Shown one piece after another: positions 32,337 through 62,255 of a stretch of DNA of 64,000 nucleotides. The notes beneath the pieces are model-generated. The model was not told where the DNA came from and searched no databases. It saw only the letters and a program-made list of their open reading frames with translations. The translations under genes and the position numbers were made by a program. The stretch's first letter is position 1. Each line of letters opens with the position of its first letter. This stretch comes from a virus (lineage: Duplodnaviria; Heunggongvirae; Uroviricota; Caudoviricetes). The DNA lies in IMG/VR virus record IMGVR_UViG_3300035544_000169; one strand, given 5' to 3'.

Positions 32337-32776
32337 AAGTCTAACACCCCTTCAATTCCTTCAGAGCCAAGAGGAATTTTGTAAATTGCTACCTTTTCTT
32401 CAAGTCCTGCAATTACCCTAACTTTCATCCCAAATATAGAACTAATCTTATCTGCGTTTTCTTTCAACTCAACAGGCATTGTTTCTTTAAATTCTTCAAA
32501 ACCCTCTTTATTAAAAACAATTACATAATGATAAGACATTTCAGGCAGTGAATTTATTGCCTCATACAAGTCATCAAGGCTTGTTTCGTCTGTATTTATT
32601 TCACATTCGACAGAATACCTATCCTTAGATATACTGTCATACCACTCAATCTGGTCTTTTGCTACCTGAGATGTCATGGTCATAACTTCTGCCGGGAATT
32701 CAATATTATCTATAAACATTCTCATCTCTGCTGCTTTTACTTTTTTTCCTGTGAATTCATTACTGATTGTGTTCAT
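32324..32776 (-). CDS. Hypothetical protein
   Basis: 150-aa ORF coupled to pyrG. Confidence 0.4.
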   Translation of the reverse strand: MNTISNEFTGKKVKAAEMRMFIDNIEFPAEVMTMTSQVAKDQIEWYDSISKDRYSVECEINTDETSLDDLYEAINSLPEMSYHYVIVFNKEGFEEFKETMPVELKENADKISSIFGMKVRVIAGLEEKVAIYKIPLGSEGIEGVLDLWNF

Positions 32777-34425
32777 CTCCTCGTAGAAGCATTTTTTATA
32801 AAGTCAACAAATAACGGATGTGGTCTTAAAGGCCTTGACTTAAACTCAGGGTGAAACTGCACACCAACAAACCACGGGTGGTCCTCTATTTCAATTATTT
32901 CAGCAAGATTTAAGTCCGGGTTTATTCCAGTAACTATCATTCCTTTTTCAAAAAACTCAGTAAAATAATTATTAAATTCAAAGCGATGTCTGTGCCTTTC
33001 ACTAATATGCTCTTCTTTATAAGCTCCGTAAGCCTTGCTATTAGTATCAAGAGTGCAGTCATAAGAGCCAAGCCTCATTGTTCCACCTTTATTATTAATT
33101 TCTTTCTGCTCATTCATGAGAGTGATTACAGGGTTTTTAGTTTCACTGTCAAACTCTAAGCTGTTGGCATCTTCTAGGCCAAGCTTGTTTCTGGCATACT
33201 CAATAGCTGCAACCTGCATTCCTAGGCAGATACCAAAGTAAGGGACATTGTTTTTTCTAGCATACCTAGCTGCTTTTATCTTACCCTCAATACCTCTTTT
33301 GCCGAATCCACCAGGAACTAGTATTCCATCATATTCTTTTAATGTTATTTTTACTGCTTCATCACAGCTTAAATCTTCTAAGTATTCAGCATCTATAAAT
33401 GCAATTTCTACATCAAGATTGTTTGCGACACCTGCATGATATAAAGCTTCTTTGATACTAAGATAAGCATCTTCAAGCTCTGTGTATTTACCAACAACAG
33501 CGATATTTACACTTTCTTTTTCTTCTTTTAAATTTTTGACCATAGTTTCCCACATATCCATATCCTTAAACTTAACTCCGGGAGTCATATCTGGTACAGA
33601 CAAATCAAAACCTATACCTTTCATAACCCTTTCAGCCATAAACTGCTCTTCATATTTCAGAGGAATATCGTATATGTGCTCAACATCTACAGATTCAAAT
33701 ATTAATCTTTTATCTATATTTCCAAAGAGTGAAATTTTATCTTTTATATCTTCCGGCATCTGACCTTTTATTCTGCCAACAACGGCATCTGGCTGAACAC
33801 CCAAGCTCCTAAGTTCTTTTAAACTCTGCTGTGTTGGCTTTGACTTGTATTCACCGACCTTATGCATATAAGGTATTAAAGTGCAGTGAATATGGAATGT
33901 ATTATCAAAGCCCAAGTCATGTCTTAACTGCCTTACAGCTTCTATAAATGGATAGCTTTCAATATCTCCTACAGTTCCTCCAACTTCAATAATAATAATA
34001 TCTGTATTTTTATCTTCTGGTAATGTCATTCTTCTTTTAATCTCGTCTGTTATGTGCGGTATAACCTGTATTGTTTTTCCTAAATACTTTCCTTCTCTTT
34101 CATTATCTAAAACAGTCTGATATATTTGACCTGTAGAAACTGAGTTTTTACCAGAAAGCTCAATGTTGATAAACCTTTCATAATGACCGAGGTCTAAATC
34201 AGTTTCAGCCCCATCTGATGTTACAAAAACCTCTCCATGTTCTATAGGGTTCATTGTCCCGGGGTCAACATTGATATAGGGGTCAAATTTCTGAACCTTA
34301 ATATTTAACCCTCTAGCTTTAAGCAAAAAACCAAGTGAAGCAGCAGTAAGGCCTTTACCTAAGCCCGAAACCACTCCACCAGTAACAAATATATATTTTG
34401 TCTTCTTGCTACGCACACTCATCAA
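32773..34425 (-). CDS. pyrG: CTP synthase (glutamine-hydrolysing)
   Basis: N-terminal KYIFVTGGVVSGLGKG synthetase domain, C-terminal class-I glutamine amidotransferase (GICLGMQ, HPEF). Confidence 0.9.
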   Translation of the reverse strand: MMSVRSKKTKYIFVTGGVVSGLGKGLTAASLGFLLKARGLNIKVQKFDPYINVDPGTMNPIEHGEVFVTSDGAETDLDLGHYERFINIELSGKNSVSTGQIYQTVLDNEREGKYLGKTIQVIPHITDEIKRRMTLPEDKNTDIIIIEVGGTVGDIESYPFIEAVRQLRHDLGFDNTFHIHCTLIPYMHKVGEYKSKPTQQSLKELRSLGVQPDAVVGRIKGQMPEDIKDKISLFGNIDKRLIFESVDVEHIYDIPLKYEEQFMAERVMKGIGFDLSVPDMTPGVKFKDMDMWETMVKNLKEEKESVNIAVVGKYTELEDAYLSIKEALYHAGVANNLDVEIAFIDAEYLEDLSCDEAVKITLKEYDGILVPGGFGKRGIEGKIKAARYARKNNVPYFGICLGMQVAAIEYARNKLGLEDANSLEFDSETKNPVITLMNEQKEINNKGGTMRLGSYDCTLDTNSKAYGAYKEEHISERHRHRFEFNNYFTEFFEKGMIVTGINPDLNLAEIIEIEDHPWFVGVQFHPEFKSRPLRPHPLFVDFIKNASTRR

Positions 34426-42401: not shown

Positions 42402-45400
42402 TCAATTTAACTTTATCAACCAGCATTGCATTACTTTTATCTTTTTTACCTTCAAGCTTTAGCTTAAAACCTTTTTGGAATAAGTCGTGGTTTGCTCTGT
42501 AGGTATCTGGAAAAACTACAAGTTTAATTTTATTTTTATCTGTCTTAACTTTTGCAAAAGCCATCAGCTTATTTGACTTTCTGGTTTTAACCTCTTTAGA
42601 TTCTGTAATTATACCTTCTACCTCTAAGACCTCTCCACTTTTAGCAAAATCCCATTCAGAAGGATAGGTTAAAGATAAACCGATTGTGTCCATTTCGAAT
42701 TCAATAATTTCTTCTTTTGTGGGTTCTGGTTCGTCAAAAACTCCAGAACCTTCCTCATTTTTGAAGGCATCAAATAGTGACTGCCTCATCTGTCCAAACT
42801 CTTTAATAGTCTTGTAATCTACAAGTAATTGTTTTCTGTTTTTGCCGAATGAATCCATTGCCCCAGCTTTAATTAAAGATTCAAAAGCTGTCTTATTAAC
42901 AACTCTTGTATCAACCTTCTGGTACATATCATCTAGGTCTTTAAACGGTCTTTGATTCATTATTTCGGTGCTTGCTTTTTTACCTAAACCATCAATCGCA
43001 TTTAAACCCAGTCTTATCTTCCCGTTAACAGCTGTAAAGCGCCCTTCTGACTCGTTAATGTCAGGAGGTAGTATATCTATCTTCTTTTTATAGCAGTCCG
43101 AGAAATAGTCCGTAATCGAGCTGTCAGAGCCACTCTTTGCTGCTTCAACACTCATAATAGCTGCATAGAACTCTGCCGGAAAATGGTATTTAAGGTAAGC
43201 AGTGGCATAAGATATTAATGCATAGCAAGCAGAATGTGATTTATTAAAGCCATAGCCGGCAAAATATTCGATTAATCTAAACATTTCATCAGCAAATTCT
43301 TCTGTGTGGCCATTTTCTTTAGCTCCTGCTTTAAACTTAACTTTCATTTTTTCTAATACTTTTATTTTCTTTTTTCCCATTCCACGCCTTAATATATCTG
43401 CCTCTCCCAAACTGAATCCTGCAAGCCTTCTAGCTGCAGCCATAACTTGCTCCTGGTAAGCCATAAATCCGTAAGTTTCTTTAAGGTCTTCTTCAAGGTC
43501 AGGATGTGGATACTCTATCTTTTCATTACCGTGCATTCTGTCAAAAAACTTTTCTACGATACCAGCTTCTAGTGGTCCAGGACGACCGAGAGCTAAAATA
43601 GCGATGATATGCTCGAATTTTGTCGGCCTCATTTTCTTTAAAAGCCTTTTAAAAAGCTGTGATTCTACCTGAAAAACCCCGTTGGTATCAGCCTTCTGAT
43701 AGATGTTTTTATATACATCTTTATCATCAAGAGGTAAATCCCAGATATTTTGTACTGTAGGTTTATACTCTAAGCTATCATAATCTTTTCTGTTTTTGAT
43801 AAACTTAATAGCCTCACCTATGATAACAACAGTCTTTAGCCCTAAGAAATCCATCTTGAGCAAACCTAAATCTTCGCTATCGTGCATCTCTGTCTGAGTT
43901 ACATATGTTATCTCACCAGTTTGGCTGTTTTTGGTTCGTGCTAAAGGTGTATAATCATCAACAGGCTCTGGAGTAATAACAACCGCTGAGGCGTGTGTAC
44001 CTAACTGTCTAGGCTTACCCTCTAATTTTTGAGCTATATCGAATAGTTTTGGGTACTGTTCAGCATACATCTTAAGCTCTTTGCTTTCTTCAAGTGCTCC
44101 CTTAATTGAAATGCCTGGAGTATCCGGAAATGCCTTAGAAATTTCTTTATTCATTAGATTGTAATCATATCCTAATACTCTTCCTACATCTTTAACAGCT
44201 GATTTAGCACCTAATGTACCAAAGTTACAGATACTTGCTACATTTTCTTCTCCGTATTTGTCGATTACATACTGGATAACTTTTCCTCTATTTCCAAAAT
44301 CTATATCAATATCAGGCATAGCAGTTCTTTCAGGGTTTAAGAATCTCTCAAATAATAATCCATATTTAACAGGGTCCAAAGCTGTAATACCTAAAAGATA
44401 AGATAGAAGTGAGCCTGCTGCAGACCCTCTACCAGGACCAACAATAATGTTGTTATCTTTAGCCCACTGAACATAATCTTCAACAATTAAAAAGTATGCA
44501 GGATATCCCTTCATATTTATAACCTCAAGCTCCGTATCAAGCCGTCTGGCGTATTTATCCATATCAATGTCTTTTTTTACAGCCAACTCAAAAAGCTTCT
44601 TAAAGGCCCTTTCTTCAAGGTATGACTCAAGTGTATAACCTTCAGGAACTTCGAACTTAGGAAGTAGTAAACTACCTAAATCAAGCTCGACTGTATCACA
44701 TTTATCGGCAATTTTTACTGTATTTTCAATAGCACTATCTCTGGCATCTATAAAATCAGACTCTACACTCTTTGCAAAAAGCTGACTTTTTATCTCATCT
44801 TCACCCTTAAAATAGTATGAATCTCCATGAAATCTAAATCTGTCATTATCTTCAACTTTTGCCCCTGTTTGAATACATAGCATAACGTCATGAGCTTCGA
44901 TACTGTCTTTTTCTAGATAGTGCATATCTGATGTAGCTACAAGCTCTATATCTAATTTTCTAGCTAAATTTGCAAGCTTTGAGTTCATTACGTACTGCTC
45001 TGATACATCGTTGGCCATAATTTCAATGTAGTAATCATCTTCAAATAAGTTTTTATATTTTAAAGCTATTTCTTTAGCACTTTCAAAATCATTATTTTCT
45101 AAAGCCCTTGACAGCTCTCCCGCAAGGCAGGCAGAACTTACTATAAGTCCTTCAGAATGCTTTTCTAAAAGCTCAAAATCTATCCTAGGTTTATAATAAA
45201 AACCTTCTGTATTTGACTTACTCACCATTTTAAAGATATTTTTTAATCCTGTTTCATTTTTAGCAAGGATTATAAGGTGATGTCTTTTACCTTCTTTATC
45301 ATGCATGTCATTAGCTACATATACTTCAATTCCAAATATATGTTTAATTCCTTCTTCTTTGGCTGCTTTATAAAGCTCTACGAAATTGTGAATGTTGCCG

Positions 45401-45522
45401 TGGTCACTTATGGCAACAGCTTTCTGCCCCATTTCTTTTGCTTTTTTTACAATATCCTTTGGTGAATCAAAGCCGTCCAAAAAAGAGTAGTAACTGTGGT
45501 TGTGTAAATTAACATAAGACAA
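42370..45522 (-). CDS. dnaE: DNA polymerase III alpha subunit (DnaE-type, PHP domain), compact 1050 aa
   Basis: N-terminal PHP LHNHSYYSFLDG...ISDHGN, a polymerase core (…GRGSAAGSLLSYLLGIT..., PDIDIDF), and a C-terminal OB region. It overlaps recJ by 32 nt. Confidence 0.9.
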   Translation of the reverse strand: MSYVNLHNHSYYSFLDGFDSPKDIVKKAKEMGQKAVAISDHGNIHNFVELYKAAKEEGIKHIFGIEVYVANDMHDKEGKRHHLIILAKNETGLKNIFKMVSKSNTEGFYYKPRIDFELLEKHSEGLIVSSACLAGELSRALENNDFESAKEIALKYKNLFEDDYYIEIMANDVSEQYVMNSKLANLARKLDIELVATSDMHYLEKDSIEAHDVMLCIQTGAKVEDNDRFRFHGDSYYFKGEDEIKSQLFAKSVESDFIDARDSAIENTVKIADKCDTVELDLGSLLLPKFEVPEGYTLESYLEERAFKKLFELAVKKDIDMDKYARRLDTELEVINMKGYPAYFLIVEDYVQWAKDNNIIVGPGRGSAAGSLLSYLLGITALDPVKYGLLFERFLNPERTAMPDIDIDFGNRGKVIQYVIDKYGEENVASICNFGTLGAKSAVKDVGRVLGYDYNLMNKEISKAFPDTPGISIKGALEESKELKMYAEQYPKLFDIAQKLEGKPRQLGTHASAVVITPEPVDDYTPLARTKNSQTGEITYVTQTEMHDSEDLGLLKMDFLGLKTVVIIGEAIKFIKNRKDYDSLEYKPTVQNIWDLPLDDKDVYKNIYQKADTNGVFQVESQLFKRLLKKMRPTKFEHIIAILALGRPGPLEAGIVEKFFDRMHGNEKIEYPHPDLEEDLKETYGFMAYQEQVMAAARRLAGFSLGEADILRRGMGKKKIKVLEKMKVKFKAGAKENGHTEEFADEMFRLIEYFAGYGFNKSHSACYALISYATAYLKYHFPAEFYAAIMSVEAAKSGSDSSITDYFSDCYKKKIDILPPDINESEGRFTAVNGKIRLGLNAIDGLGKKASTEIMNQRPFKDLDDMYQKVDTRVVNKTAFESLIKAGAMDSFGKNRKQLLVDYKTIKEFGQMRQSLFDAFKNEEGSGVFDEPEPTKEEIIEFEMDTIGLSLTYPSEWDFAKSGEVLEVEGIITESKEVKTRKSNKLMAFAKVKTDKNKIKLVVFPDTYRANHDLFQKGFKLKLEGKKDKSNAMLVDKVKLIEGDFFKKAN

Positions 45523-45621
45523 ATAACTTCCTCCTTTCGTTTCGTTAAGTTTATTATATCATACTTCACTTGAATATTAAAGAAAAAGGTGTACTGTTAA
45601 AGTAACACCCTTTTTTATTAA

Positions 45622-46248
45622 TTATTTGTTCATTTTATATTTTCCATAACTATAATAAGGAACTCCATCATCTATTAAATCATAATCGTCTCTTTCTGAT
45701 ATGATTGCCCATGCATCTTCGTTTTCTATATGGTATCTAACACCAACCTTTTTAGCTTGTAGTTTACCTCTAGATATTTTATTAACTATTCCCTGATTGG
45801 TTACTCCTATCAAGAATGCTAGTTCATTTGCAGATAAATCTCTACCTCTATATAATTTTATTCTTGTTTCTGCTAACGTTATTAAAAATCCAATCCGGGA
45901 GTTTAAAAGACCCCTGTTTGTACCCTGCTGAACAAAGTATTTAGAAACGATGTTTACCTGAGAATCCTCTTTTAGTTCGTTTATTATTCCAGTTATCTCA
46001 GGAATATAGTCATACTGTCCTTTTATAAAGTAAAAGAGTTTCTTTATTTCTTTAGCAAAAGGAAAAGGAAAATCAATTCTCTTATTCTCTATTGGACAGA
46101 AAAGTTCCACTGGCTCTTTGTTCACCTCTATGTCTTTTGCATACTTAAGTTCAATCTGGATTAATTCACGGAAATTGTTTTCTATATCAGATATAATTTT
46201 ATTATAAAAACTTTTTCCTTTGAAATCTTTAATGCTGTATTCATTCAT
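45622..46248 (-). CDS. Hypothetical DNA-binding protein (C-terminal HTH)
   Basis: C-terminal LSANELAFLIGVTNQGIVNKISRG HTH-like segment. Confidence 0.35.
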   Translation of the reverse strand: MNEYSIKDFKGKSFYNKIISDIENNFRELIQIELKYAKDIEVNKEPVELFCPIENKRIDFPFPFAKEIKKLFYFIKGQYDYIPEITGIINELKEDSQVNIVSKYFVQQGTNRGLLNSRIGFLITLAETRIKLYRGRDLSANELAFLIGVTNQGIVNKISRGKLQAKKVGVRYHIENEDAWAIISERDDYDLIDDGVPYYSYGKYKMNK

Positions 46249-46346
46249 TTTTTTAAACCCCCTTTTTATTTAGTGTTATTCTCTAAACTAATCATAACAT
46301 CTGCAAATTTCTTTGTCAACAACTTTTTTTAGGAATTACTCTTATT

Positions 46347-46886
46347 TTATATGTGAATTTTTTCTTTTAACATCACTTCTAATTCTCTTTTTGCAATTTC
46401 TTTTTCATCTTTTTGCAAATTGTTTTTTAAGCAAAATTCAAAGTCTATATTTGAGTTTTTAATAAATAATGCTGATTTATAAATACACTTCCAATCTTTA
46501 CCTCCTGTTATAACAACGTTCTTGTGGTAGTTTAAAAAACTGTTCTTTAAAACTAGATATATTTTATCAACTAGATTCTCATTTGTTATTTTGTATATTT
46601 TTGAAACTTTAACCCCATTTGTATATAGTTTTACAACTATATTTTTATGATTGTTTTGCAAATATTTCAAAAATTGAACGAGGTCAGTTTGAAGCGTTGC
46701 CTCTCCGCCTCTTATGGTAATTTCCTTTAAATTTTTATAATTTATATCTTCTTTATTAAAATTTTCTTTTTTTATTTTTGGAACTAGATGCAAATCCTTA
46801 CAATCTGCACACCTTAAGTTACATCCCTGAACATAGATTGTTAACTTCTTACCGTCCTCTGAATATTCCTTCTTATAAATATTCAT
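46347..46886 (-). CDS. Small radical SAM activating enzyme (NrdG-like / QueE-like; CxxxCxxC)
   Basis: YVQGCNLRCADCKD cluster motif, ITIRGGEATLQ SAM-binding motif. 179 aa, the size of class-III RNR activases. Confidence 0.5.
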   Translation of the reverse strand: MNIYKKEYSEDGKKLTIYVQGCNLRCADCKDLHLVPKIKKENFNKEDINYKNLKEITIRGGEATLQTDLVQFLKYLQNNHKNIVVKLYTNGVKVSKIYKITNENLVDKIYLVLKNSFLNYHKNVVITGGKDWKCIYKSALFIKNSNIDFEFCLKNNLQKDEKEIAKRELEVMLKEKIHI

Positions 46887-46935
46887 TCCAAACCTCCTAA
46901 AATAAAAACCCCCAAAATTAATTGAGGGTTTAAGT

Positions 46936-48123
46936 TTATTTTTTATATTTTTCTTTTATTAAAAATGAGACCTGTATCCCGATTCCTATTAATGCTGCAA
47001 GTCCTACACCGCTAAATTTATAAACTGTTATTCCACTTAGTCCAAAAACTATCATCGTAGAAGCTATAAATGTATTCTTTGGATTTGTGAAATCGACTTT
47101 ATTTGAAACAAAAGTTTTAAAGCCTAGAGTTGCTATATTACCAAAAAGAATAATCATAACTCCTCCAACAACAGCTGTTGGTATTGACTGCAGAAAAGCT
47201 GCTAATACACCTACAAAACTAAATATAATTGCAAATATACCTGCATTTCTTGTAACTTTTGGGTCTCTTATCTTTAATAGACTAACTGCTGATGTTCCTT
47301 CTGAGTAAGTTGTATTTGGTACAGAACCTATAAAAGAAAGCATTGTGCCTATTCCATCAATTAACATCGTTCTGTGCATCCCTGGTGACTTATAATACTT
47401 ATTACCAGTTGCTTCACTTATTGCAAATACATCACCAAAATGCTCTATTGTTGGAGCTAAAGCAAATGGCAGTATGTAAATTGCTGCGCTTAAATTAAAT
47501 CTTGGAAGTGTAAACTCAGGCATACTTATTAGTGGTAGAGAAACAAAAGTTACCTCTCCTAAAAATAAAGCTGATATATATCCTGTTAAAATAGCTATTA
47601 AAACTGAATATAATCTTGTTATCCCTTCTGTGAACATCATAAAATATCCCGCTGTAGACAATGTTATAATAGCTAAAAGCCAATTACCTGAAGCCATATC
47701 TATACCTGTATCTATCAGGGTCAATCCTATCAGCATAATCATTGTTCCTGAGATTACCGGAGGAAAAAGTTTTTCTGAGATGAAGTCACTGCCTGTTTTT
47801 TTAATTACAAATGAAAATAAAACCTTCATAATTCCCGCAACACCTAATGCAAAGAAAACTGATGGCATATCCCATCTATCCTGTATATAAATTATTGGTG
47901 CTATATAGGCAAATGATGAGCCTAGAAAAATTATTGGTGCTCCATATTCACCTCTACCAAAATAATGCATAATAAGTGTAGATATTCCTGCTGTAAATAA
48001 TACTATAGATGTTGAGATACCCGTCAAAAGGGGTACCAAAATCGTAGCGCCAAAGCAGACGACAAGCATCTGTAAACCTAAAAGCCATGTGTTATTTCCA
48101 ATATTGAAATTCTCTGATTTCAT
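46936..48123 (-). CDS. NCS2-family nucleobase (uracil/xanthine-type) permease
   Basis: GLQMLVVCFGATILVPLLTGISTSIVLFTAGISTLIMHYFGRG...IIFLGSSFAYIAPII closely parallels the UraA/PbuX signature regions. ~12 TM segments. Confidence 0.75.
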   Translation of the reverse strand: MKSENFNIGNNTWLLGLQMLVVCFGATILVPLLTGISTSIVLFTAGISTLIMHYFGRGEYGAPIIFLGSSFAYIAPIIYIQDRWDMPSVFFALGVAGIMKVLFSFVIKKTGSDFISEKLFPPVISGTMIMLIGLTLIDTGIDMASGNWLLAIITLSTAGYFMMFTEGITRLYSVLIAILTGYISALFLGEVTFVSLPLISMPEFTLPRFNLSAAIYILPFALAPTIEHFGDVFAISEATGNKYYKSPGMHRTMLIDGIGTMLSFIGSVPNTTYSEGTSAVSLLKIRDPKVTRNAGIFAIIFSFVGVLAAFLQSIPTAVVGGVMIILFGNIATLGFKTFVSNKVDFTNPKNTFIASTMIVFGLSGITVYKFSGVGLAALIGIGIQVSFLIKEKYKK

Positions 48124-48144
48124 TAATATTGTGCCTCCTGTTTT

Positions 48145-48438
48145 TTATAACCAATTATATTTTTTTACGTAATAAAAATCTTCGCTTATACCACAATAAG
48201 GGCAAACCTTTACTTTCTTTTCTGGATGAGTTTTAAATTTTCTATTTTTGCCACATATAGGACACCATGTATAAATTATTCTTCTGTCTGGTTTTTTGAA
48301 ATCCTTGTGTTTGTAAAGTGTTACTTTTTTGTACTTCTTTTTTTGTTTTTTGTAATATTTTTCTGCCTCTTTTTTGCTTGTAAACTTTTCTTTTTCATAT
48401 TTAAATTTTTTCTTAGCTGTAATTACAAACCACTTCAA
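48145..48438 (-). CDS. Small basic zinc-ribbon protein
   Basis: CPICGKNRKF...CPYCG, Lys-rich N-terminus. Confidence 0.4.
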   Translation of the reverse strand: MKWFVITAKKKFKYEKEKFTSKKEAEKYYKKQKKKYKKVTLYKHKDFKKPDRRIIYTWCPICGKNRKFKTHPEKKVKVCPYCGISEDFYYVKKYNWL

Positions 48439-48611
48439 TTAATACCTCCCCCTTTAAGAGATATTTACAGTACTTTATCAAATGTTTTTCTGTCTTTCCA
48501 CTCTTCTTTTTTTCCTTTATTCCAATGAGAGATAGGTGTTAAAAACCCAACAACTCTGGAATAAACTTCACATCTAGTTCTTTTGCTTTCCATAATTACC
48601 ACCTCCTTTCT

Positions 48612-49328
48612 TTAATTTCTTATTCTTACATTATCAATATACTCTTCAGCAATGCTTTTAAATTCCTTTAACTTTTTTTCACTAAAACCATTTTTGCCAC
48701 AGAGTTCTTTATTATAAGTAGAATCACCTTTGAAATTCTGGATAAAATACCAGTCAGAATTTATTATCTGAGAGGCGATTTCTCTAATGTCCTCACTTTC
48801 ATGCATTCCTGGTACTACTGTGGTTCTGATTTCATACTGAACATCATATTTTTCTTTGGCCTGATATATATTATATAAAGAGCGTTTAATCTTATCTAAA
48901 TTAATCTTGCCTCCTAATGAGCCGTATCTCTCATATGGCATTTTAAAATCCATTGCTATATAATCTATAAGACCAGAAGACGCAAGGTATAAAAGTTTTT
49001 TAGGATAGGAACCGTTAGTATCAATCTTAACTTTTAATCCCATAGTTTTAACTTTTTCAAGGAATAATTTTAAATCATCAATATCCTGCATTAAGGGCTC
49101 TCCACCAGTAATAGTAACTCCATCTATCTTTCCTTTTCTTTCGTTTAGGAACATTAAAATTTCATCTTCGTTAATTAAATTTTCTTTGTCTTTTATATCT
49201 TCACTTATTAATGATGGGTTGTGGCAGTAAGGACATCGTAAATTACAACCCTGAGTAAATAAGATTGTAGAAATATGTTCTGGATAATCCATCAAAGAAG
49301 TCTTTTGTATTCCTGCAAATTTAATCAT
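48612..49328 (-). CDS. Glycyl-radical-enzyme activating protein family (NrdG/PflA-like radical SAM)
   Basis: FTQGCNLRCPYCHNP, GVTITGGEP, 238 aa. Confidence 0.65.
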   Translation of the reverse strand: MIKFAGIQKTSLMDYPEHISTILFTQGCNLRCPYCHNPSLISEDIKDKENLINEDEILMFLNERKGKIDGVTITGGEPLMQDIDDLKLFLEKVKTMGLKVKIDTNGSYPKKLLYLASSGLIDYIAMDFKMPYERYGSLGGKINLDKIKRSLYNIYQAKEKYDVQYEIRTTVVPGMHESEDIREIASQIINSDWYFIQNFKGDSTYNKELCGKNGFSEKKLKEFKSIAEEYIDNVRIRN

Positions 49329-49923
49329 TTAAACCCTCACCAAACCTTTTTACAAAAGCTTTTTCATCTGCTGGCATTTGCTCAAAGCCAATCTCCACTA
49401 ATCCATGTAGCCTTATAATTTCATAAAAAATAGCAATAGACTTTTTAAGCTCTCCATCATTATTTTTAATAGTGTAGTCCGCTATTTCTTTATTTTTTCT
49501 TTCACGAGTCTTAATCATGTGCCAAACTCTCTTGAATGCAGCTTTAAACCCATCTCTTTTATAAAGTCTTTTTGCAAGCTGATAGAATGGTACATCAATG
49601 TAGATAACTCTAACCTCATCACCATACATACCTTTCATTTGTCTGACTCCGTTTCTGTCCATAATTACAAATACAGAATCGTTATCCTCCAACTTTCTTT
49701 CAACTTCTCTTGTTGAGAGGCAGTAATAGTTGCCGGCGTATTCTGTAAACTCAGCTTTATTCATTTTGTCTATGTCTTTTTTGGTAACAAAATAGTAAGT
49801 CTCTCCGTGAACTTCTCCTTTTCTCATATCTCTTGAGGTGTGGGATACAAGCTCAGGTAATCCTGAGCCTTTACCGATTGCAGTTTTACCAGAGCCTGAA
49901 GGTCCCATTAAGATATATATCAT
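49321..49923 (-). CDS. gmk: Guanylate kinase-like nucleoside-monophosphate kinase
   Basis: GPSGSGKT P-loop, VSHTSRDMRKGEVHGETYYFV (GMP-binding HTTR...GE..G..Y.F motif). Confidence 0.7.
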   Translation of the reverse strand: MIYILMGPSGSGKTAIGKGSGLPELVSHTSRDMRKGEVHGETYYFVTKKDIDKMNKAEFTEYAGNYYCLSTREVERKLEDNDSVFVIMDRNGVRQMKGMYGDEVRVIYIDVPFYQLAKRLYKRDGFKAAFKRVWHMIKTRERKNKEIADYTIKNNDGELKKSIAIFYEIIRLHGLVEIGFEQMPADEKAFVKRFGEGLND

Positions 49924-49934
49924 ATTTAACCCCC

Positions 49935-50363: not shown

Positions 50364-53300
50364 CTAACCCCCATATCCGTTTTCAGCATCACACTTAGGA
50401 CAGAATTCGTGTTCTCCTGGCAGATACCCATGTATTGGACAAATACTAAAAGTAGGAGTAATAGAGTAATAAGGAAGTTCATAATTTTCAGCAACTCTTT
50501 TAACAAACTTTTTGGTAGCCTCTATTCCAGGCATTCTCTCTCCTAGAAATAAATGTAAAACTGTTCCTCCTGTATAATTTTTCTGAAGTTCATCCTGCCA
50601 ATCTAAAGCTTCAAAAGGGTCGTCTGTAGCCCCTACAGGTAGCTGAGTTGAATTAGTGTAATACGGGTCAGCATCTTCTGTATAAACCCTTTTATCATTA
50701 GCAAAAACAGCTTCTTCTTTCCCAAACTTATCAAGGTCTGATTTGGCCAATCTATAGCTTGTTCCTTCAGCTGGAGTAGCTTCAAGGTTAAAAAGGTCAC
50801 TTGTTTCTTCCTGGTACTCCACCATTCTTTCTTTCATTTTGTGCATAACCCATTTAGTAAATTTAATAGCTTCATGTTCTGTCATATCTTTTCCTAAGAA
50901 ATTCATAACAGATTCATTCATTCCATTTAATCCGATTGTATTAAAGTGATTTTTCCAGTACTCTCCAAAACGTTCCTTAATACTTCTTAGATAAAACTTA
51001 GAATAAGGGTAAAGACCTGCATCTGTTAACTCTTCTAAAATTCTTCTTTTAATTTCTAAACTTTCTTTTGCAATATCCATTAATTCATAGACTCTCTCTA
51101 AATAATCATCAGTATTTTCTGCTAAAAGTCCAATTCTGGGCATATTAAGTGTTACTACACCGATAGAGCCTGTCATAGGCGATGAGCCGAATAAACCTCC
51201 TCCTCGCTTTCTTAATTGCCGATTATCAAGGCGCAGCCTGCAGTTATGAGTCAAGATTCCAGTTGTGCCAACCGTAAACATTGGTTCTCCATCTTTGACT
51301 TCAAAACAATAAGCCGTTTGTTTTTCTTTTAGTTTTTCAACTTTATCTATTTTCATCCACAGTTTTGAGTCTTTTTTAAACCAAACGTCGCCATAACTAT
51401 TTCTATTTAATTTGTAAAATAAAACAGCATAATTTGGATTATCTCCTAGTCTTCCATCACTTTTTTTTCTGTCATCAGTATAAACATTGGTTGTTGTTCC
51501 CAGAGTAGCAGCTAACATATTTAAGCTTTCTACCATTTTTTCTGATGATGTATAAATTCTATTTTTGTTTCCTCCATCAGTTTCATAATAGCCATCAAAT
51601 AATCCTGTTCTAAAGTGTTTGCTCATTTCAAAAACATTTGCTTTGAAGTATTTATTTAATGCATTATCCCCATCAACAAAACTTTCAATCATTGATTTTA
51701 CTGCTGGATTATATGTTGAAAGTTTAACTACATTATTTTTTTCTTCTTTTTCGGTAAATTTAGCCCCAAAAAGTTTAGTCAGTATTTCTTTTAAATTTTC
51801 AAGCACTGTTAGCTTGGTATTATTATTTAAAGAAAAAACAGTTCCTGTATTTTTATCACAGCTTCCGTCTCCTGCAAAAGCTCCTATTAAATAGCCAAGG
51901 TCATAAGTTCCTCCTTCGCCTTTAAAACTTGTTAAGCTATAAGGTAGATAATAACCTTCTTTTAAGTCTTTTCCTGACATTTCTTCAATATCTTTATTTT
52001 TATTTTTGATAACAAAATTTAAATGTTCTTCAGTCATCTTTATCTCATGCCCGTTAACCAATCTTACATTTATCATATTTTGATTTTCAAACTTATTGAA
52101 TCGACCTTCTATAAATTTACCATCAGAATAGACTAATATATCATCATTATCTTTAGTGTCATAATATGTGTGGTTAATTTGGGAGTATCTTACATTGTCA
52201 TCACCTGTTTTAACTAATACCTTTTCTTTTCCGTCAAGTGGGCACATTGAGCGAGCGTCTTCAGCTTTCATATCTGAGTTTAAAAAATTGGCAAAATATG
52301 GAATTCCGTACTTGGCTGTCATTTCCCAGACAGGGTCAAGGACCTCATTATCCCAATCAAAATCTGGAGTAATGTTATAAGTAGGAATAGGGAAAGAAAA
52401 TACTCTTCCTTTTGAATCTCCCGCCAGCATAACCTCAGCAAAAGCCTTGTTAATCATGTCCATTTCCTTCTGGAAATTTTTAAGCGGCATGTCATAAAGC
52501 ATTTCGCCACCAATAATAGCTGGGTCCTCTGCCATATTTGATGGACAAACTAAATCCATAGTTAAATTTGTAAAAGGACTTTGAAATCCAACCCGTGTCG
52601 GTACATTTAAATTAAAAATAAATTCCTGCATAGCCTGATAAACTTCATCATAATCAAGTCCATCATAAGATACAAACGGTGCAAGATAAGTATCGAAACT
52701 TGAAAAAGCTTGAGCTCCAGAACTCTCTCCCTGTAAAGTATATAAAAAATTAACCATTTGTCCTAAAGCAGTTCTGAAGTGTTTTGGTGGTGCCGACTCT
52801 ATCTTGGTTGACACTCCTGAAAAACCTTCCAATAATAAATCCTGAAGGTCCCATCCACAACAGTAATTACTTAAATTAGCAAGGTCGTGAATGTGCAAAT
52901 CTCCACTTACATGCTTTTCTTTAATGTGTTTAGGGTAAATTTCATTTAACCAATAATGGCCTGTCACCTCGCTTGCTATATGATTATTTAAACCCTGAAG
53001 ACTATAACCCATATTGGAGTTCTCATTAACTTTCCAATTGCTTAAATCAAGGTAATTATTAACTGTATCATTTATTCCATTGTATAGTTTTTGAGCATCT
53101 CTATACTTTTCATGCTGCTTTCTATATAATATATAGTTTTTTGCTATTTCATAATGTCTGTTTTCCATTAATTCATACTCAACAATATCCTGTAAAGTCT
53201 CAACATTAACAGAGTTTAATCCAGAACTAATCATTCCACTTATATTATCTTCTATTTCTTCAACAATATTATTTGCAACAAAATTCCAAAAATCTTCACC

Positions 53301-53405
53301 TTTTTTTTCTGCTGTTGCCTTCGCTGCTTTATAAACTGCATCTTTAATTTTTTTATTTTTATATTCTACTTTTCTTCCGTCTCTTTTAATTACATAAAAC
53401 GACAT
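50364..53405 (-). CDS. nrdD: Anaerobic ribonucleoside-triphosphate reductase (class III, NrdD) interrupted by a LAGLIDADG intein
   Basis: N-terminal ATP-cone-like region, core ...SMC|RLRLDNRQLRKRGGGLFGSSPMTGSIGVVTLNMPRIGL (cf. the E. coli MGCRSF...LGVVTLNLPRIAL), C-terminal Zn ribbon C...CPKC. The intein Cys...THN/C boundaries are present. Confidence 0.85.
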   Translation of the reverse strand: MSFYVIKRDGRKVEYKNKKIKDAVYKAAKATAEKKGEDFWNFVANNIVEEIEDNISGMISSGLNSVNVETLQDIVEYELMENRHYEIAKNYILYRKQHEKYRDAQKLYNGINDTVNNYLDLSNWKVNENSNMGYSLQGLNNHIASEVTGHYWLNEIYPKHIKEKHVSGDLHIHDLANLSNYCCGWDLQDLLLEGFSGVSTKIESAPPKHFRTALGQMVNFLYTLQGESSGAQAFSSFDTYLAPFVSYDGLDYDEVYQAMQEFIFNLNVPTRVGFQSPFTNLTMDLVCPSNMAEDPAIIGGEMLYDMPLKNFQKEMDMINKAFAEVMLAGDSKGRVFSFPIPTYNITPDFDWDNEVLDPVWEMTAKYGIPYFANFLNSDMKAEDARSMCPLDGKEKVLVKTGDDNVRYSQINHTYYDTKDNDDILVYSDGKFIEGRFNKFENQNMINVRLVNGHEIKMTEEHLNFVIKNKNKDIEEMSGKDLKEGYYLPYSLTSFKGEGGTYDLGYLIGAFAGDGSCDKNTGTVFSLNNNTKLTVLENLKEILTKLFGAKFTEKEEKNNVVKLSTYNPAVKSMIESFVDGDNALNKYFKANVFEMSKHFRTGLFDGYYETDGGNKNRIYTSSEKMVESLNMLAATLGTTTNVYTDDRKKSDGRLGDNPNYAVLFYKLNRNSYGDVWFKKDSKLWMKIDKVEKLKEKQTAYCFEVKDGEPMFTVGTTGILTHNCRLRLDNRQLRKRGGGLFGSSPMTGSIGVVTLNMPRIGLLAENTDDYLERVYELMDIAKESLEIKRRILEELTDAGLYPYSKFYLRSIKERFGEYWKNHFNTIGLNGMNESVMNFLGKDMTEHEAIKFTKWVMHKMKERMVEYQEETSDLFNLEATPAEGTSYRLAKSDLDKFGKEEAVFANDKRVYTEDADPYYTNSTQLPVGATDDPFEALDWQDELQKNYTGGTVLHLFLGERMPGIEATKKFVKRVAENYELPYYSITPTFSICPIHGYLPGEHEFCPKCDAENGYGG
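51243..52244 (-). other. Intein (334 aa, LAGLIDADG homing-endonuclease type) within nrdD
   Basis: Begins CPLDGKEKVL (Cys1), contains LGYLIGAFAGDGS (LAGLIDADG block), ends GILTHN followed by the extein Cys (CRLRLD). The spliced junction restores the conserved SM-CR motif. Confidence 0.7.
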
Positions 53406-56397: not shown

Positions 56398-57063
56398 TTA
56401 TAACACAAATCCGTCCACTTTTAAAGTTTTTATCTTTTTTAATATTTTGTCGGTTGATTCTTTTATAGAATGAAGGCTTGAGTTTATTATTACTTTGGGG
56501 TAATCAAGCATTTTTAAATTGTGATTTTTAGTTAGAGTTATAAACTTTCTATTTAATCCGTCCCAATCATAATTGTATTTTTCCATAAAGGTATCTGCTT
56601 CATTACTGATAAATGGTTCGTTAGCTATCATTATAACGCCCATATCAGGAGTTGGAAAACCTAACATCTCTTCTATCTTAAATAAATCTTTGTAGTCTAA
56701 AACTCCCTTTTCCATACACTGATAGACAGCTGTTGAAAGGTCGTATCTATCACTTAAGATTATAGTGTTATCATCATTTTCTTTTTTAATCAAAGTCTTA
56801 ATATGTTCAGCCCTATCAGCCAGGAATATTAATGTTTCAGTTAAAGGAGATATTTTTTCATCTTTATCAAATAAAATCTTTCTTAACTTTAAACCAAACT
56901 CTGAGCCTCCCGGCTCTTTAGTTGTCAATACTCTCTTATTAAAGGAAGGAGAAGCCCTTAAGGCCTCTCCCACGCTTTCTAAGAGGGTTGATTTCCCGAC
57001 CCAATCGGGCCCTTCAAATACTATAAACAAACTAATCATCCTCTCTCTTTTCTGCTTCTTCAA
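56398..57063 (-). CDS. tmk: Thymidylate (dTMP) kinase family protein
   Basis: IVFEGPDWVGKST (the EGxDGxGKST P-loop), DRY-like SDRYDLST motif. Confidence 0.65.
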   Translation of the reverse strand: MKKQKRERMISLFIVFEGPDWVGKSTLLESVGEALRASPSFNKRVLTTKEPGGSEFGLKLRKILFDKDEKISPLTETLIFLADRAEHIKTLIKKENDDNTIILSDRYDLSTAVYQCMEKGVLDYKDLFKIEEMLGFPTPDMGVIMIANEPFISNEADTFMEKYNYDWDGLNRKFITLTKNHNLKMLDYPKVIINSSLHSIKESTDKILKKIKTLKVDGFVL

Positions 57064-61559: not shown

Positions 61560-61711
61560 TTATTTTCAACCCTCTCTATAATTTCTTTTTTCATTAATTT
61601 TATTTCTTCTTCTCTTTCTAATGTGTAATTAGATGTTTGAAATACAATATTTCTTTCAAGCTCTTTAACTAGGTCATGAGTTGGGATTATCTTAATCATT
61701 TTCTTATCCAT
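61556..61711 (-). CDS. Small protein (51 aa) translationally coupled between dcd and groES
   Basis: MDKKMIKIIPTHDLVKELERNIVFQ... The stop TGA overlaps the groES ATG. Confidence 0.3.
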   Translation of the reverse strand: MDKKMIKIIPTHDLVKELERNIVFQTSNYTLEREEEIKLMKKEIIERVENK

Positions 61712-62255
61712 TTTTCACAAACTCTCTATCACGGAAACTCATACTTCCTGTTGCTCCGTTTTGACCATTGTATTTCCCGTTGTATAAATTGTCAGGTACA
61801 TTTTTAGTTTCTGCAAATACAAGCTGACAAATTCTTGTTCCCGGAGTTAATTCGATTGGGATTTCATTGGAATTATATAACTCTAATGTAATCTGACCCC
61901 AGAAGCCGTTGTCGACCCAGCCTGCATTCTCAATAAAAAGTCCAAGCCTTCCAATTGAACTTCTACCTTCAACGAAAGCGGCTATCTTACCGTCAAGTCT
62001 TACACTTTCTTTTGTTGTAGCTAAAACAAATTCATGAGGTTTTAGTATAAATTTCTCATCTTTTCCTAAAATTAATTCTTCGTATTCTGTTTTTTCATTG
62101 AGTTTTATAAGCTCATTTTCTTTTTTAATCAAAGAAAAACTATTTCCAAGCCTTAAGTCTACGGAAGCGGGTTCAATCTGCTCTTTTTTTAGGGGTCTTA
62201 TATCTATAAAGCCAGCCTCCATGTTTCGTTTAATATCTTTATCCGACAAAATCAT
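61704..62255 (-). CDS. dcd: dCTP deaminase
   Basis: MILSDKDI...ASVDLRLGN...EGRSSIGRLGLFIENAGWVDNGFWGQITLELYN matches Dcd signatures. Confidence 0.85.
   Translation of the reverse strand: MILSDKDIKRNMEAGFIDIRPLKKEQIEPASVDLRLGNSFSLIKKENELIKLNEKTEYEELILGKDEKFILKPHEFVLATTKESVRLDGKIAAFVEGRSSIGRLGLFIENAGWVDNGFWGQITLELYNSNEIPIELTPGTRICQLVFAETKNVPDNLYNGKYNGQNGATGSMSFRDREFVKNG

What the first reader, a model, noticed from the sequence alone, without database searches (positions are those of the whole stretch)
46347..48123. Phage-encoded NCS2 nucleobase permease next to a small radical-SAM gene
ORF 46936 carries the hallmark NCS2 segments (GLQ(H/M)L...FGATILVPLLTG...LFTAGI(G/S)TL...LGSSFAYIAPII) of uracil/xanthine permeases. 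Membrane transporters for nucleobases are rare in phages and would let the infected cell import pyrimidines or purines for the large nucleotide-metabolism toolkit here (PyrG, Dcd, GMK, TMK, NrdDG). If the adjacent 179-aa rSAM (46347) is QueE-like rather than NrdG-like, the pair could relate to import or synthesis of a modified base.
Basis: partly seen in the sequence, partly recalled or inferred. Interest (0 to 1): 0.5.

Follow-up and report, generated by a model that had tools for sequence, protein, structure and literature searches.

The report
Phage copy of host uracil permease
A roughly 200-kb phage of salt-loving anaerobic bacteria carries a copy of its host's uracil importer gene (pyrP) that lacks the host's feedback switch, probably to feed its own DNA-building enzymes; the small radical-SAM gene next to it belongs to the neighbouring ribonucleotide-reductase cluster and has nothing to do with modified bases.

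Summary
Both ORFs are real, and both lie on the minus strand.

**Permease (46936-48123, 395 aa)**
- It is a complete NCS2 permease: Pfam PF00860 scores 224 bits, and the AlphaFold model matches UraA with TM-score 0.89.
- UraA's uracil-binding residues are conserved.
- Its nearest cellular relatives (62-70% identity) are Halanaerobiales permeases. These sit right after pyrR and behind PyrR-binding RNA leaders, so they are PyrP uracil permeases.
- The phage copy has no PyrR leader. It has its own Shine-Dalgarno site and a terminator-like hairpin, and pN/pS is about 0.10.
- Related phages either lack the permease (L009, L016, L017) or carry a different pyrP at the same slot (L010, 38% identical, derived from Halanaerobium). 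The permease is therefore a repeatedly captured insert.

**Small radical-SAM protein (46347-46886, 179 aa)**
- It is a shortened, divergent NrdG2 paralogue: NrdG2 scores 70 bits, QueE no more than 31.
- In every relative it travels with NrdG and a free-standing NrdD glycyl-radical tail, whether or not a permease is present.
- None of the ORFs scanned in the window matched a deazaguanine-pathway family.

**Verdict**
- The auxiliary-gene reading is supported and narrowed to uracil. The modified-base pairing is not supported.
- Clostridium phage c-st already has an annotated uracil permease, so this is a new member of a known kind.
- The split NrdD found nearby is the more unusual feature.

The parts
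46936..48123 (-). pyrP-type NCS2 uracil permease, 395 aa, a host-derived auxiliary gene
   Evidence: PF00860 224 bits. UraA 3qe7 E=6e-50. AF2 pLDDT 87.9 and Foldseek 5xls TM 0.89. 62-70% identity to pyrR-linked Halanaerobiales permeases. pN/pS about 0.10.
48134..48139 (-). Shine-Dalgarno AGGAGG, 10 nt upstream of the permease ATG. No PyrR leader lies in the 21-nt gap to the upstream ORF.
   Evidence: Sequence read. Rfam finds no PyrR site in 46300-48700 at E<=1.
46906..46931 (-). Terminator-like hairpin (10-bp stem followed by a U-run), 4 nt after the permease stop codon and before the small rSAM ribosome-binding site
   Evidence: Pattern scan, sequence, fold -14.9 kcal/mol with z=-2.35.
46347..46886 (-). 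Small radical-SAM protein, 179 aa: a shortened, divergent paralogue of the NrdG2 class III RNR activase, with its own AGGAGG at 46893-46898
   Evidence: NrdG2 70.4 bits against QueE 30.5 or less. Relatives P0122, P0123 and L016 score 122, 117 and 100 bits on NrdG2. Exhaustive phmmer hits are about 230-aa NrdG2-length proteins. AF2 pLDDT 92, top PDB match PFL-AE 3cb8.
48145..48438 (-). 97-aa lysine-rich protein with a C-terminal zinc ribbon, just upstream of the permease. A homologue is present in the permease-less relative L016.
   Evidence: Weak Zn_ribbon hits. 45% identity over the C-terminal 56 aa to the L016 112-aa ORF.
48465..48593 (-). Free-standing 42-aa NrdD glycyl-radical tail (..YSRVVGFL..) with its own Shine-Dalgarno site
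   Evidence: Matches the last 32 positions of the NrdD model. Colinear with T. maritima NrdD after the Zn site. SD site read. 78-85% identical in L009, L010, L016 and L017.
48612..49328 (-). Canonical NrdG2 activase, 238 aa
   Evidence: TIGR02495 190.7 bits against a cutoff of 131.
50364..53405 (-). NrdD catalytic subunit lacking the glycyl-radical tail and carrying an intein (about residues 389-721)
   Evidence: NF006126 974 bits in two stretches, plus an intein C-terminal hit. The ORF ends at ...CPKCDAENGYGG. The intein-free 681-aa homologue is in L016 and L017.
45622..46248 (-). 208-aa protein of unknown function that follows the small rSAM gene in the window, L009 and L010
   Evidence: No family hit. 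About 40% identity to the L009 and L010 ORFs in the same position.

Best explanation
The 395-aa gene is a pyrP-type uracil:cation symporter that a roughly 200-kb phage of Halanaerobiales captured from its host lineage. It was inserted into the phage's anaerobic ribonucleotide-reductase gene cluster. The phage copy keeps the complete 14-helix UraA fold and the uracil-binding residues. It has lost the PyrR/UMP-responsive RNA attenuator that controls the host gene. It has its own ribosome-binding site and a terminator-like hairpin.

Inferred mechanism: during infection the permease is made from phage transcripts whatever the UMP level, and it imports external uracil. Host UPRTase (Upp or PyrR) converts uracil to UMP. 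Phage enzymes then carry the flux on: PyrG (UTP to CTP), NrdD/NrdG (CTP to dCTP), Dcd (dCTP to dUTP) and dTMP kinase.

The adjacent 179-aa radical-SAM protein is not a partner of the permease. It is a shortened, divergent NrdG2 paralogue and a conserved member of the nrd cluster. It most likely acts on the class III RNR system, possibly on the free-standing glycyl-radical tail peptide.

Shown here: family, fold, residue conservation, orthology to pyrR-linked genes, absence of the attenuator, purifying selection, and the variable presence of the permease against the constant presence of the radical-SAM gene. Inferred: the substrate, the direction of transport, the benefit to the phage, and the biochemical target of the small radical-SAM protein.
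For: **Family and fold**
- PF00860 scores 224 bits; UraA E=6e-50.
- The AF2 model (pLDDT 87.9) superposes on occluded UraA 5xls with TM 0.89/0.86 and rmsd 2.1 A.

**Substrate site**
- UraA's uracil contacts, as described in PMC5539350, are Glu241, Glu290, the Phe73 backbone and Ser72.
- They align to E227, E275, F71 and S70. E227, E275 and F71 were counted and are unchanged in all 63 sequences of alignment A5; S70 is listed among the invariant columns of A5.

**Orthology**
- The best cellular hits (62-70% identity) are Halanaerobiales.
- In L003 and L005 the gene order is lspA-rluD-pyrR-permease, with PyrR scoring 263-267 bits, above cutoff.
- Rfam PyrR-binding sites lie upstream of pyrR, and between pyrR and the permease in L005 at 53.8 bits, 0.2 below the gathering score.

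**Loss of the attenuator**
- No PyrR site is found in window 46300-48700 at E<=1.
- The gap to the upstream ORF is only 21 nt and contains AGGAGG.

**Selection**
- Against three ~98% relatives there are 15-21 synonymous and 5-7 non-synonymous differences, giving a ratio of about 0.10.

**Repeated capture**
- L010, a syntenic relative (PolIIIalpha 64%, NrdD 77%), has a 417-aa permease in the same slot. It is only 38% identical to the window's and 64-65% identical to Halanaerobium PyrP.
- That Halanaerobium type lies in carAB-pyrR-permease-pyrBCFKD.
- L009, L016 and L017 have no permease.
- Other phage-like contigs place a pyrP-type permease beside nucleotide genes: L018, L019, L026 and c-st.

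**Rationale**
- In Lactococcus cremoris, phage sk1 infection strongly represses the PyrR-controlled pyrRPB operon, pyrP included (PMC10986495).

**Downstream phage enzymes**
- PyrG, Dcd and TMK score above their NCBIfam cutoffs; NrdD and NrdG likewise.

**Small radical-SAM protein**
Against: - No transport assay exists for this protein or for its Halanaerobiales orthologues. Uracil is inferred from gene context and the regulon.
- The protein scores below the curated cutoffs of NCBIfam ncs2 (252.8 against 291.8) and the UraA equivalog (239.9 against 477). The host PyrP orthologues also score below both.
- The TM10 segment reads E-G-T-S-A-V-S-L-L-K, which departs from the canonical NAT motif E-N-x-G-x-x-x-x-T-K seen in UraA and in the L010 copy.
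- UraA His245, a proton-coupling candidate, is Asp here. It is also Asp in 62 of 63 relatives, including pyr-operon PyrP.
- No phage UPRTase, ThyA/ThyX or dUTPase was found in the window, so the pathway depends on host steps or on genes in the unseen ~140 kb.
- The small radical-SAM protein is below the NrdG2 cutoff, lacks the N-terminal D[YF]PG loop and the C-terminal ~50 residues, and its fold match to QueE (5th5) is almost as good as to PFL-AE.
Confidence: 0.75

Rival explanations
1. The permease imports a different nucleobase (xanthine, uric acid, thymine, cytosine or a modified base) rather than uracil.
For: It scores below the uracil-permease equivalog cutoff, and the xanthine permease model also matches at 166 bits. 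The TM10 motif is non-canonical, with N291 changed to G, G293 to S and T298 to L. No member of this type-A clade has been assayed.
Against: UraA is the best solved match by a wide margin (173 bits against 44 for UapA; Foldseek 2.5e-23 against 1e-12). Glu is kept at the UraA E290 position; from my own knowledge of the NAT family, xanthine and urate transporters have Gln there. Cellular orthologues sit behind pyrR and PyrR attenuators. The phage enzymes nearby are mostly pyrimidine enzymes (PyrG, Dcd, TMK).
Confidence: 0.12
2. The permease and the small radical-SAM protein form a functional pair for import or synthesis of a modified base, with the radical-SAM protein acting like QueE.
For: The two genes are adjacent on the same strand. 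In L010 they overlap by 29 nt. B. subtilis QueE 5th5 is the second-best fold match (E=2.1e-5, TM 0.61). phrog_2076 'QueE-like' hits weakly at 26 bits.
Against: QueE HMMs score 17.8-30.5 bits against cutoffs of 206-300, while NrdG2 scores 70 bits here and 100-122 bits for the three relatives. The radical-SAM gene is present next to the NrdD tail in L009, L016 and L017, which have no permease. The two permeases that do sit beside it are non-orthologous. A terminator-like hairpin lies between the genes. No QueC, QueD, FolE or TGT family was found in the window ORFs scanned with Pfam.
Confidence: 0.03
3. The permease is a passenger gene with no transport role in infection, or it has been repurposed, for example as a membrane protein for superinfection exclusion.
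For: It is absent from three related lineages, so it is dispensable for the phage family. There are no expression data.
Against: It has a purifying-selection signature (pN/pS about 0.10). All substrate-site residues and 49 family-invariant positions are retained. A pyrP was captured independently at the same slot in L010 and in unrelated phage backbones beside nucleotide genes.
Confidence: 0.07
4. The region is cellular or plasmid DNA rather than phage, so the permease is simply a host gene.
For: Most structural ORFs have no PHROG hit. There is no match in 50,697 GenBank phage records at the DNA level.
Against: The window has a tail protein at 301 bits and an endolysin at 168 bits, and YopX, DUF5662, an intein, a phage-type sigma factor and a replication module. 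There is a 203.6-kb IMG/VR viral contig at about 98% identity. The pyrR, lspA and rluD context of the cellular orthologues is missing here.
Confidence: 0.03

Closest known systems
PyrP, the uracil permease of the Gram-positive pyrR-pyrP(-pyrB...) operon (NCS2/NAT family); structural prototype E. coli UraA (PDB 3QE7, 5XLS)
   Same: Same fold (TM 0.89 to 5xls). Same uracil-contacting residues. 62-70% identity to pyrR-adjacent Halanaerobiales permeases.
   Different: It is encoded by a phage, next to nrd genes instead of pyrR, and has no PyrR-binding attenuator. It has a 7-residue N-terminal insertion and a short C-terminal tail relative to host copies. The TM10 motif is E-G-T-S...L-K instead of E-N-x-G...T-K, a variant shared with the host type-A clade.
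CST091 'uracil permease' of Clostridium phage c-st (NC_007581)
   Same: An NCS2 permease in a large (186 kb) phage of an anaerobic Firmicute, placed among nucleotide-salvage genes (nucleoside 2-deoxyribosyltransferase, thymidine kinase).
   Different: Only 27% identical. It is a different phage backbone and an independent acquisition, and it is not next to nrd genes. To my knowledge neither has been tested functionally.
NrdG2-type class III RNR activase (TIGR02495); structural stand-in PFL-activating enzyme (PDB 3C8F, 3CB8)
   Same: The small rSAM has CX3CX2C, GGE and TNG motifs. NrdG2 is its best HMM, PFL-AE its best fold match. It sits in a cluster with NrdD, NrdG and the glycyl-radical tail.
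   Different: It is below the family cutoff (70 against 131 bits). It lacks the N-terminal D[YF]PG loop and about 50 C-terminal residues. It has a family-specific W-[NK]-C-I-Y-K-S motif. It co-exists with a canonical NrdG2 in every genome seen.
QueE (7-carboxy-7-deazaguanine synthase)
   Same: A small radical-SAM partial barrel. 5th5 is the second-best Foldseek match.
   Different: All QueE HMM scores are far below their cutoffs. No QueC, QueD, FolE or TGT partners were found in the window. Its conserved partners are nrd genes.

Membership tests
NCS2/NAT nucleobase:cation symporter (Pfam PF00860) | Full-length match to the Xan_ur_permease profile above the gathering score | tested here: met
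   224.4 bits against a cutoff of 27; residues 12-367 cover profile positions 3-386 of 389.
NCS2/NAT nucleobase:cation symporter (Pfam PF00860) | 14-TM (7+7) UraA-type fold with core and gate domains | tested here: met
   AF2 model pLDDT 87.9, pTM 0.87. Foldseek to UraA 5xls gives TM 0.89/0.86 and rmsd 2.1 A over 402 columns.
NCS2/NAT nucleobase:cation symporter (Pfam PF00860) | NCBIfam TIGR00801 (ncs2) curated cutoff | tested here: not met
   252.8 bits against a cutoff of 291.8. The bona fide host PyrP orthologues also fall short at 245-249 bits, so this cutoff excludes the whole clade.
NCS2/NAT nucleobase:cation symporter (Pfam PF00860) | NAT signature motif in TM10, [Q/E/P]-N-x-G-x-x-x-x-T-[R/K/G] (motif recalled from my own knowledge) | tested here: not met
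   The window has E-G-T-S-A-V-S-L-L-K: the first E and last K are kept, while N, G and T are replaced. The same variant occurs in 21-22 of 63 relatives, the host type-A clade. The L010 copy has the canonical E-N-V-G-V-L-A-I-T-K.
Uracil permease (UraA/PyrP) | Uracil-coordinating residues of UraA: Glu241, Glu290, Phe73 backbone, Ser72 (PMC5539350) | tested here: met
   They align to E227, E275, F71 and S70. E227, E275 and F71 are unchanged in all 63 sequences; S70 is listed as invariant in A5. Gly289 is Ser274, a backbone contact. His245 is Asp231, as in 62 of 63 relatives.
Uracil permease (UraA/PyrP) | NCBIfam NF007995 uracil permease equivalog cutoff | tested here: not met
   239.9 bits against a cutoff of 477. 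pyrR-linked host orthologues score 250-254, also below. The model is centred on enterobacterial UraA.
Uracil permease (UraA/PyrP) | Orthology to a permease encoded in the pyrR operon or PyrR regulon | tested here: met
   Nearest cellular homologues (67-70%) lie directly after pyrR (PyrR 263-267 bits), with RF00515 sites upstream.
Uracil permease (UraA/PyrP) | Own regulation by a PyrR-binding attenuator | tested here: not met
   No RF00515 match in window 46300-48700 at E<=1, and none anywhere in the window at the gathering score.
Uracil permease (UraA/PyrP) | Uracil uptake activity | not testable with these tools
   Needs uptake or 5-fluorouracil sensitivity assays.
NrdG2 class III RNR activase (TIGR02495) | CX3CX2C cluster motif and GGE SAM-binding motif | tested here: met
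   C22, C26, C29 and G60-G61-E62 are invariant across the small and canonical activases.
NrdG2 class III RNR activase (TIGR02495) | Score at or above the curated equivalog cutoff | tested here: not met
   70.4 bits against a cutoff of 131.15. Relatives score 121.7, 117.3 and 99.6. Canonical NrdG2 in the same genomes scores 189-193.
NrdG2 class III RNR activase (TIGR02495) | N-terminal D[YF]PG loop and full C-terminal region of canonical activases | tested here: not met
   The loop is shortened and not conserved, and about 50 C-terminal residues are missing in the window protein.
NrdG2 class III RNR activase (TIGR02495) | Genomic linkage to NrdD | tested here: met
   It is in one same-strand cluster with NrdD, NrdG and the glycyl-radical tail in the window, L009, L010, L016 and L017.
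NrdG2 class III RNR activase (TIGR02495) | Generates the glycyl radical on NrdD | not testable with these tools
   Needs in vitro reconstitution and EPR.
QueE (7-carboxy-7-deazaguanine synthase) | Match to a QueE model at its curated cutoff | tested here: not met
   30.5 against 260.1, 19.5 against 206.1, and 17.8 against 300.
QueE (7-carboxy-7-deazaguanine synthase) | Co-occurrence with QueC, QueD, FolE and a TGT/DpdA | tested here: not met
   None was found in any window ORF scanned with Pfam, nor among the precomputed Pfam families listed for the genes of the related contigs L001, L009 and L010. The remaining ~140 kb of the genome was not available.
QueE (7-carboxy-7-deazaguanine synthase) | QueE-like fold | tested here: inconclusive
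   5th5 ranks second (E=2.1e-5, TM 0.61), just behind PFL-AE 3cb8 (E=3.4e-6, TM 0.64). The minimal radical-SAM barrel does not discriminate between them.

The most novel reading that the evidence does not exclude
The small radical-SAM protein is a second, specialised activase for a detachable glycyl-radical 'cartridge'. In this phage family NrdD is split, so its radical-bearing C-terminal tail is a separate 42-48-aa peptide, comparable to the GrcA/YfiD spare part of pyruvate formate-lyase. The NrdG2 paralogue that always accompanies the tail would charge or recharge it. In parallel, the same locus serves as a landing pad where phages of Halanaerobiales repeatedly install attenuator-free copies of host pyrP. 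That would override the host's UMP-feedback shutdown of uracil import during infection.
Probability: 0.25. Interest if true: 0.7.

Novelty: new member of a known kind. Interest (0 to 1): 0.4.

Why it matters
Most auxiliary metabolic genes described in phages are enzymes; membrane importers of nucleic-acid precursors are seldom noted. Here the origin of a transporter can be traced to the host pyrP gene. Its regulatory leader has been lost, and different pyrP alleles have been captured independently at one slot or beside nucleotide genes in other large phages. Together this suggests that uracil supply limits phage DNA synthesis in these anaerobic, saline habitats, and that phages bypass PyrR/UMP feedback, which in another Gram-positive host shuts pyrP down on infection (PMC10986495). 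That is directly testable.

The work also removes a misleading lead, since no deazaguanine link was found. And it exposes a conserved split class III ribonucleotide reductase with a free glycyl-radical peptide and two activase paralogues, which is the more unusual biology in this stretch.

Tried and rejected
- Megablast of 45000-50000 against GenBank phages gave no match, so no annotated close relative is available.
- The word-indexed protein search with the small radical-SAM protein found only itself. The exhaustive phmmer job was needed.
- Scans of IMG/VR and metagenome contigs with the small radical-SAM alignment returned the same phage plus only two further loci, so the family sample is small: five lineages.
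- Foldseek of the small radical-SAM model does not separate the activase reading from QueE. I rejected fold as a discriminator and relied on profile scores and gene context.
- tblastn of the NrdD tail against GenBank phages gave only three hits, all inside full-length NrdD genes.
- PHROG scans of 19 plus-strand ORFs of the structural module gave hits for only two, a tail protein and an endolysin. The minus-strand transposase ORF in that module was scanned in the same call.
- I considered a uracil-DNA (PBS1/AR9-like) reading because of Dcd, 'TMK' and uracil import. I did not pursue it. The phage uses a sigma factor rather than AR9-type RNA polymerases, the TMK passes the dTMP kinase cutoff, and the presence or absence of ThyA/ThyX and dUTPase cannot be judged from 64 of about 204 kb.
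- I considered that Asp at UraA His245 signals purine specificity. I rejected this because 62 of 63 relatives, including pyr-operon PyrP of Halanaerobium, have Asp.
- Many 'phage' database hits to the permease (Listeria, Enterococcus and Staphylococcus 'phage' contigs, VT2-Sakai flank) look like host DNA in unverified records or prophage flanks. I did not count them as precedent.
Full report
**Observation**

The two ORFs exist as described, both on the minus strand: 46936..48123 (395 aa) and 46347..46886 (179 aa). The 395-aa protein matches Pfam Xan_ur_permease over nearly the whole profile (E=2.6e-66, 224 bits). It also matches E. coli UraA (3qe7, E=6e-50). The 179-aa protein has CNLRCADC and GGE motifs and matches Fer4_12/Radical_SAM.

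The listed toolkit is real:
- PyrG 32773..34425, Dcd 61704..62255 and dTMP kinase 56398..57063 score above their NCBIfam cutoffs.
- GMK is at 49321..49923 and a canonical NrdG2 at 48612..49328 (190.7 bits).
- NrdD is at 50364..53405.

The window is phage:
- It has a tail protein (301 bits) and an endolysin (168 bits).
- It has YopX, DUF5662 and a sigma factor.
- It is about 98% identical in nucleotide sequence to the 203,584-bp IMG/VR contig IMGVR_UViG_3300033747_000022. The same phage also appears on metagenome contigs of 212,659 and 108,547 bp.

**What the permease is**

An AlphaFold model built on 63 homologues (pLDDT 87.9) superposes on occluded UraA 5xls with TM-score 0.89/0.86 and rmsd 2.1 A. 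The 14-helix fold is therefore complete.

UraA binds uracil through Glu241 and Glu290, the backbone of Phe73 and Gly289, and water-mediated Ser72 (PMC5539350). These align to E227, E275, F71, S274 and S70. E227, E275 and F71 are unchanged in all 63 sequences of alignment A5, and S70 is listed among its invariant columns. UraA His245 is Asp here, and it is Asp in 62 of 63 relatives.

The protein falls below the curated NCBIfam cutoffs for ncs2 (252.8 against 291.8) and for the UraA equivalog (239.9 against 477). Its cellular orthologues also fall below both.

**Where it came from**

The best cellular hits, at 62-70% identity, are Halanaerobiales MAGs and Natronospora. In two of these genomes the gene order is lspA-rluD-pyrR-permease, the classic Firmicute pyrP position. 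The upstream gene is a full-scoring PyrR (263-267 bits).

Rfam PyrR-binding sites lie upstream of pyrR. In L005 one also lies between pyrR and the permease, at 53.8 bits, just 0.2 below the gathering score, with E=2.6e-6. These orthologues are therefore PyrP, the uracil permease of the PyrR regulon.

The phage copy has no PyrR site even at E<=1. It is separated from the upstream ORF by 21 nt containing AGGAGG. It is followed 4 nt after its stop codon by a 10-bp hairpin and a U-run.

Against three ~98% relatives it shows 15-21 synonymous and 5-7 non-synonymous changes, a pN/pS of about 0.10.

**Comparative context**

The exhaustive phmmer search with the small radical-SAM protein found only two close relatives (P0122, P0123; 39-41% identity). 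Below them come a long list of roughly 230-aa NrdG2-length proteins. Their contigs, plus two metagenome loci, give five syntenic lineages. Identity to the window is 63-69% for PolIIIalpha, 70-77% for NrdD, and 78-85% for the NrdD tail.

The conserved gene order is:

NrdD (without its C-terminal tail) - [DUF5662] - GMK - NrdG - 41-48-aa NrdD tail - [Zn-ribbon ORF] - [permease] - small radical-SAM - [~200-aa ORF] - PolIIIalpha.

- The permease is absent in L009, where the tail is followed 5 nt later by the small radical-SAM gene. It is also absent in L016 and L017.
- L010 has a permease in the same slot. It is only 38% identical to the window's and 64-65% identical to Halanaerobium PyrP.
- That Halanaerobium type lies in carAB-pyrR-permease-pyrB-pyrC-pyrF-pyrK-pyrD with two PyrR sites.
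- In a neighbour-joining tree each phage copy attaches to a different Halanaerobiales PyrP clade.

The permease is thus a variable insert, captured at least twice at this locus.

Pyrp-type permeases also occur in other phage-like backbones beside nucleotide genes:
- L018: glutaredoxin-permease-class I/II RNR.
- L019: near GMK.
- A 173-kb IMG/VR contig: permease-dCMP deaminase-ThyX.
- Clostridium phage c-st CST091: near a nucleoside deoxyribosyltransferase and a thymidine kinase.

**How it most likely works**

Shown:
- The gene is an intact host-type pyrP under purifying selection.
- It is detached from PyrR control.
- It is embedded in the phage replication and nucleotide module.

Inferred:
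- It is expressed from phage transcripts and imports uracil.
- Host UPRTase makes UMP.
- Phage PyrG, NrdD/NrdG, Dcd and dTMP kinase channel the flux towards dCTP and dTTP.

The benefit is plausible. In Lactococcus cremoris, phage infection rapidly represses the PyrR-controlled pyrRPB operon, pyrP included, along with nucleoside import (PMC10986495). An attenuator-free phage copy would escape that repression. No phage UPRTase, thymidylate synthase or dUTPase was seen in the 64 kb available.

**The small radical-SAM protein**

It and its relatives score best on NrdG2 (70.4, 121.7, 117.3 and 99.6 bits). All are below the cutoff of 131, but all are far above any QueE model, which reaches at most 35 bits. 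Each genome also carries a canonical NrdG2 scoring 189-193 bits.

The small family:
- Keeps the CX3CX2C, GGE and TNG motifs.
- Lacks the D[YF]PG loop, and in the window protein also the C-terminal ~50 residues.
- Has its own W-[NK]-C-I-Y-K-S motif.

Its model is confident (pLDDT 92). Fold search does not discriminate, however: PFL-AE 3cb8 gives E=3.4e-6 and QueE 5th5 gives E=2.1e-5.

No QueC, QueD, FolE or TGT family appears in any window ORF scanned with Pfam. The gene travels with NrdG and the tail whether or not a permease is present. I conclude it is an nrd-cluster component and not a partner of the permease. Its exact target is unknown.

**Side finding bearing on this**

The window's NrdD stops right after its zinc-ribbon CPKC. 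The glycyl-radical segment (..YSRVVGFL..) is a separate 42-aa gene at 48465..48593 with its own Shine-Dalgarno site. It lies 1.76 kb downstream, after DUF5662, GMK and NrdG.

The concatenated sequence is colinear with T. maritima NrdD 4coi residues 509-645. The split is conserved in all five lineages. It was not seen as a separate ORF among GenBank phages.

This raises the possibility that the extra activase paralogue serves the free tail. I did not test that.

**Comparison and novelty**

The permease works like PyrP/UraA and qualifies as a member of the NCS2 family and of the PyrP orthologue group. Two caveats apply: it has a variant TM10 motif shared with its host clade, and it scores below the cutoffs of the two NCBIfam models.

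A phage-borne uracil permease has been annotated since the c-st genome, so the kind is known. What is new here:
- The traced host origin.
- The loss of the attenuator.
- The repeated capture at one slot.

The modified-base hypothesis is not supported.

**Verdict**

This is a new member of a known kind, with interest 0.4. The split NrdD with its extra activase is the more novel lead.

Noticed in passing
window 48465-48593 (-) together with 50364-53405 (-); also L009 164-301, L010 1968-2093, L016 6260-6406, L017 7644-7793: The class III ribonucleotide reductase is split. NrdD ends right after its zinc ribbon, and the glycyl-radical tail (YSRVVGFL) is a separate 41-48-aa gene with its own Shine-Dalgarno site. 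In the window it lies 1.76 kb downstream, after DUF5662, GMK and NrdG. The split is conserved in five related phage lineages, and no separate tail ORF was seen in 50,697 GenBank phage records.
   Followed up: partly
window about 51243-52241 (-), NrdD residues ~389-721: NrdD carries an intein of about 333 aa with a LAGLIDADG-like motif, inserted at SMC|CRLRL. The homologous NrdD in L016 and L017 (681 aa) lacks it.
   Followed up: partly
window 42370-45522 compared with L001 5220-10932 and L008 10483-12687: Near-identical strains differ by mobile insertions. In L001 the PolIII-alpha gene is broken into pieces by two RHH_5 + HTH/LAGLIDADG ORF pairs. L008 has extra ORFs between the 208-aa gene and PolIII-alpha. 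In the window the polymerase gene is intact (1050 aa).
   Followed up: partly
window 7544-8698 (-): A transposase-like ORF (phrog_506, 121 bits) lies on the opposite strand inside the plus-strand structural module.
   Followed up: no
L018 8001-9191; L019 1131-2315; L026 5995-9267; L036 (phage c-st) 5968-9561: Other phage or phage-like contigs place pyrP-type NCS2 permeases beside nucleotide genes: glutaredoxin-permease-class I/II RNR; permease near GMK; permease-dCMP deaminase-ThyX on a 173-kb IMG/VR contig; and c-st uracil permease near a nucleoside deoxyribosyltransferase and a thymidine kinase.
   Followed up: partly
window 48145-48438 (-); L016 6426-6764: A lysine-rich protein of about 100 aa with a C-terminal zinc ribbon (CGISE[DE]FYY[VI]KKYN) sits between the NrdD tail and the small radical-SAM gene in the window and in the permease-less L016. 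Its function is unknown.
   Followed up: no
window 25450-26168 (-), 35713-36813 (-), 61260-61559 (-): The phage also encodes a thioredoxin, an RF-1-domain (ArfB-like) protein, an SPFH/Band-7 protein and a Cpn10 (GroES) homologue.
   Followed up: no
window about 25400-26000: Coding strand and GC skew switch sign here, with a cumulative skew maximum near 26 kb. This marks the boundary where the plus-strand structural and lysis module and the minus-strand replication and nucleotide module converge.
   Followed up: no
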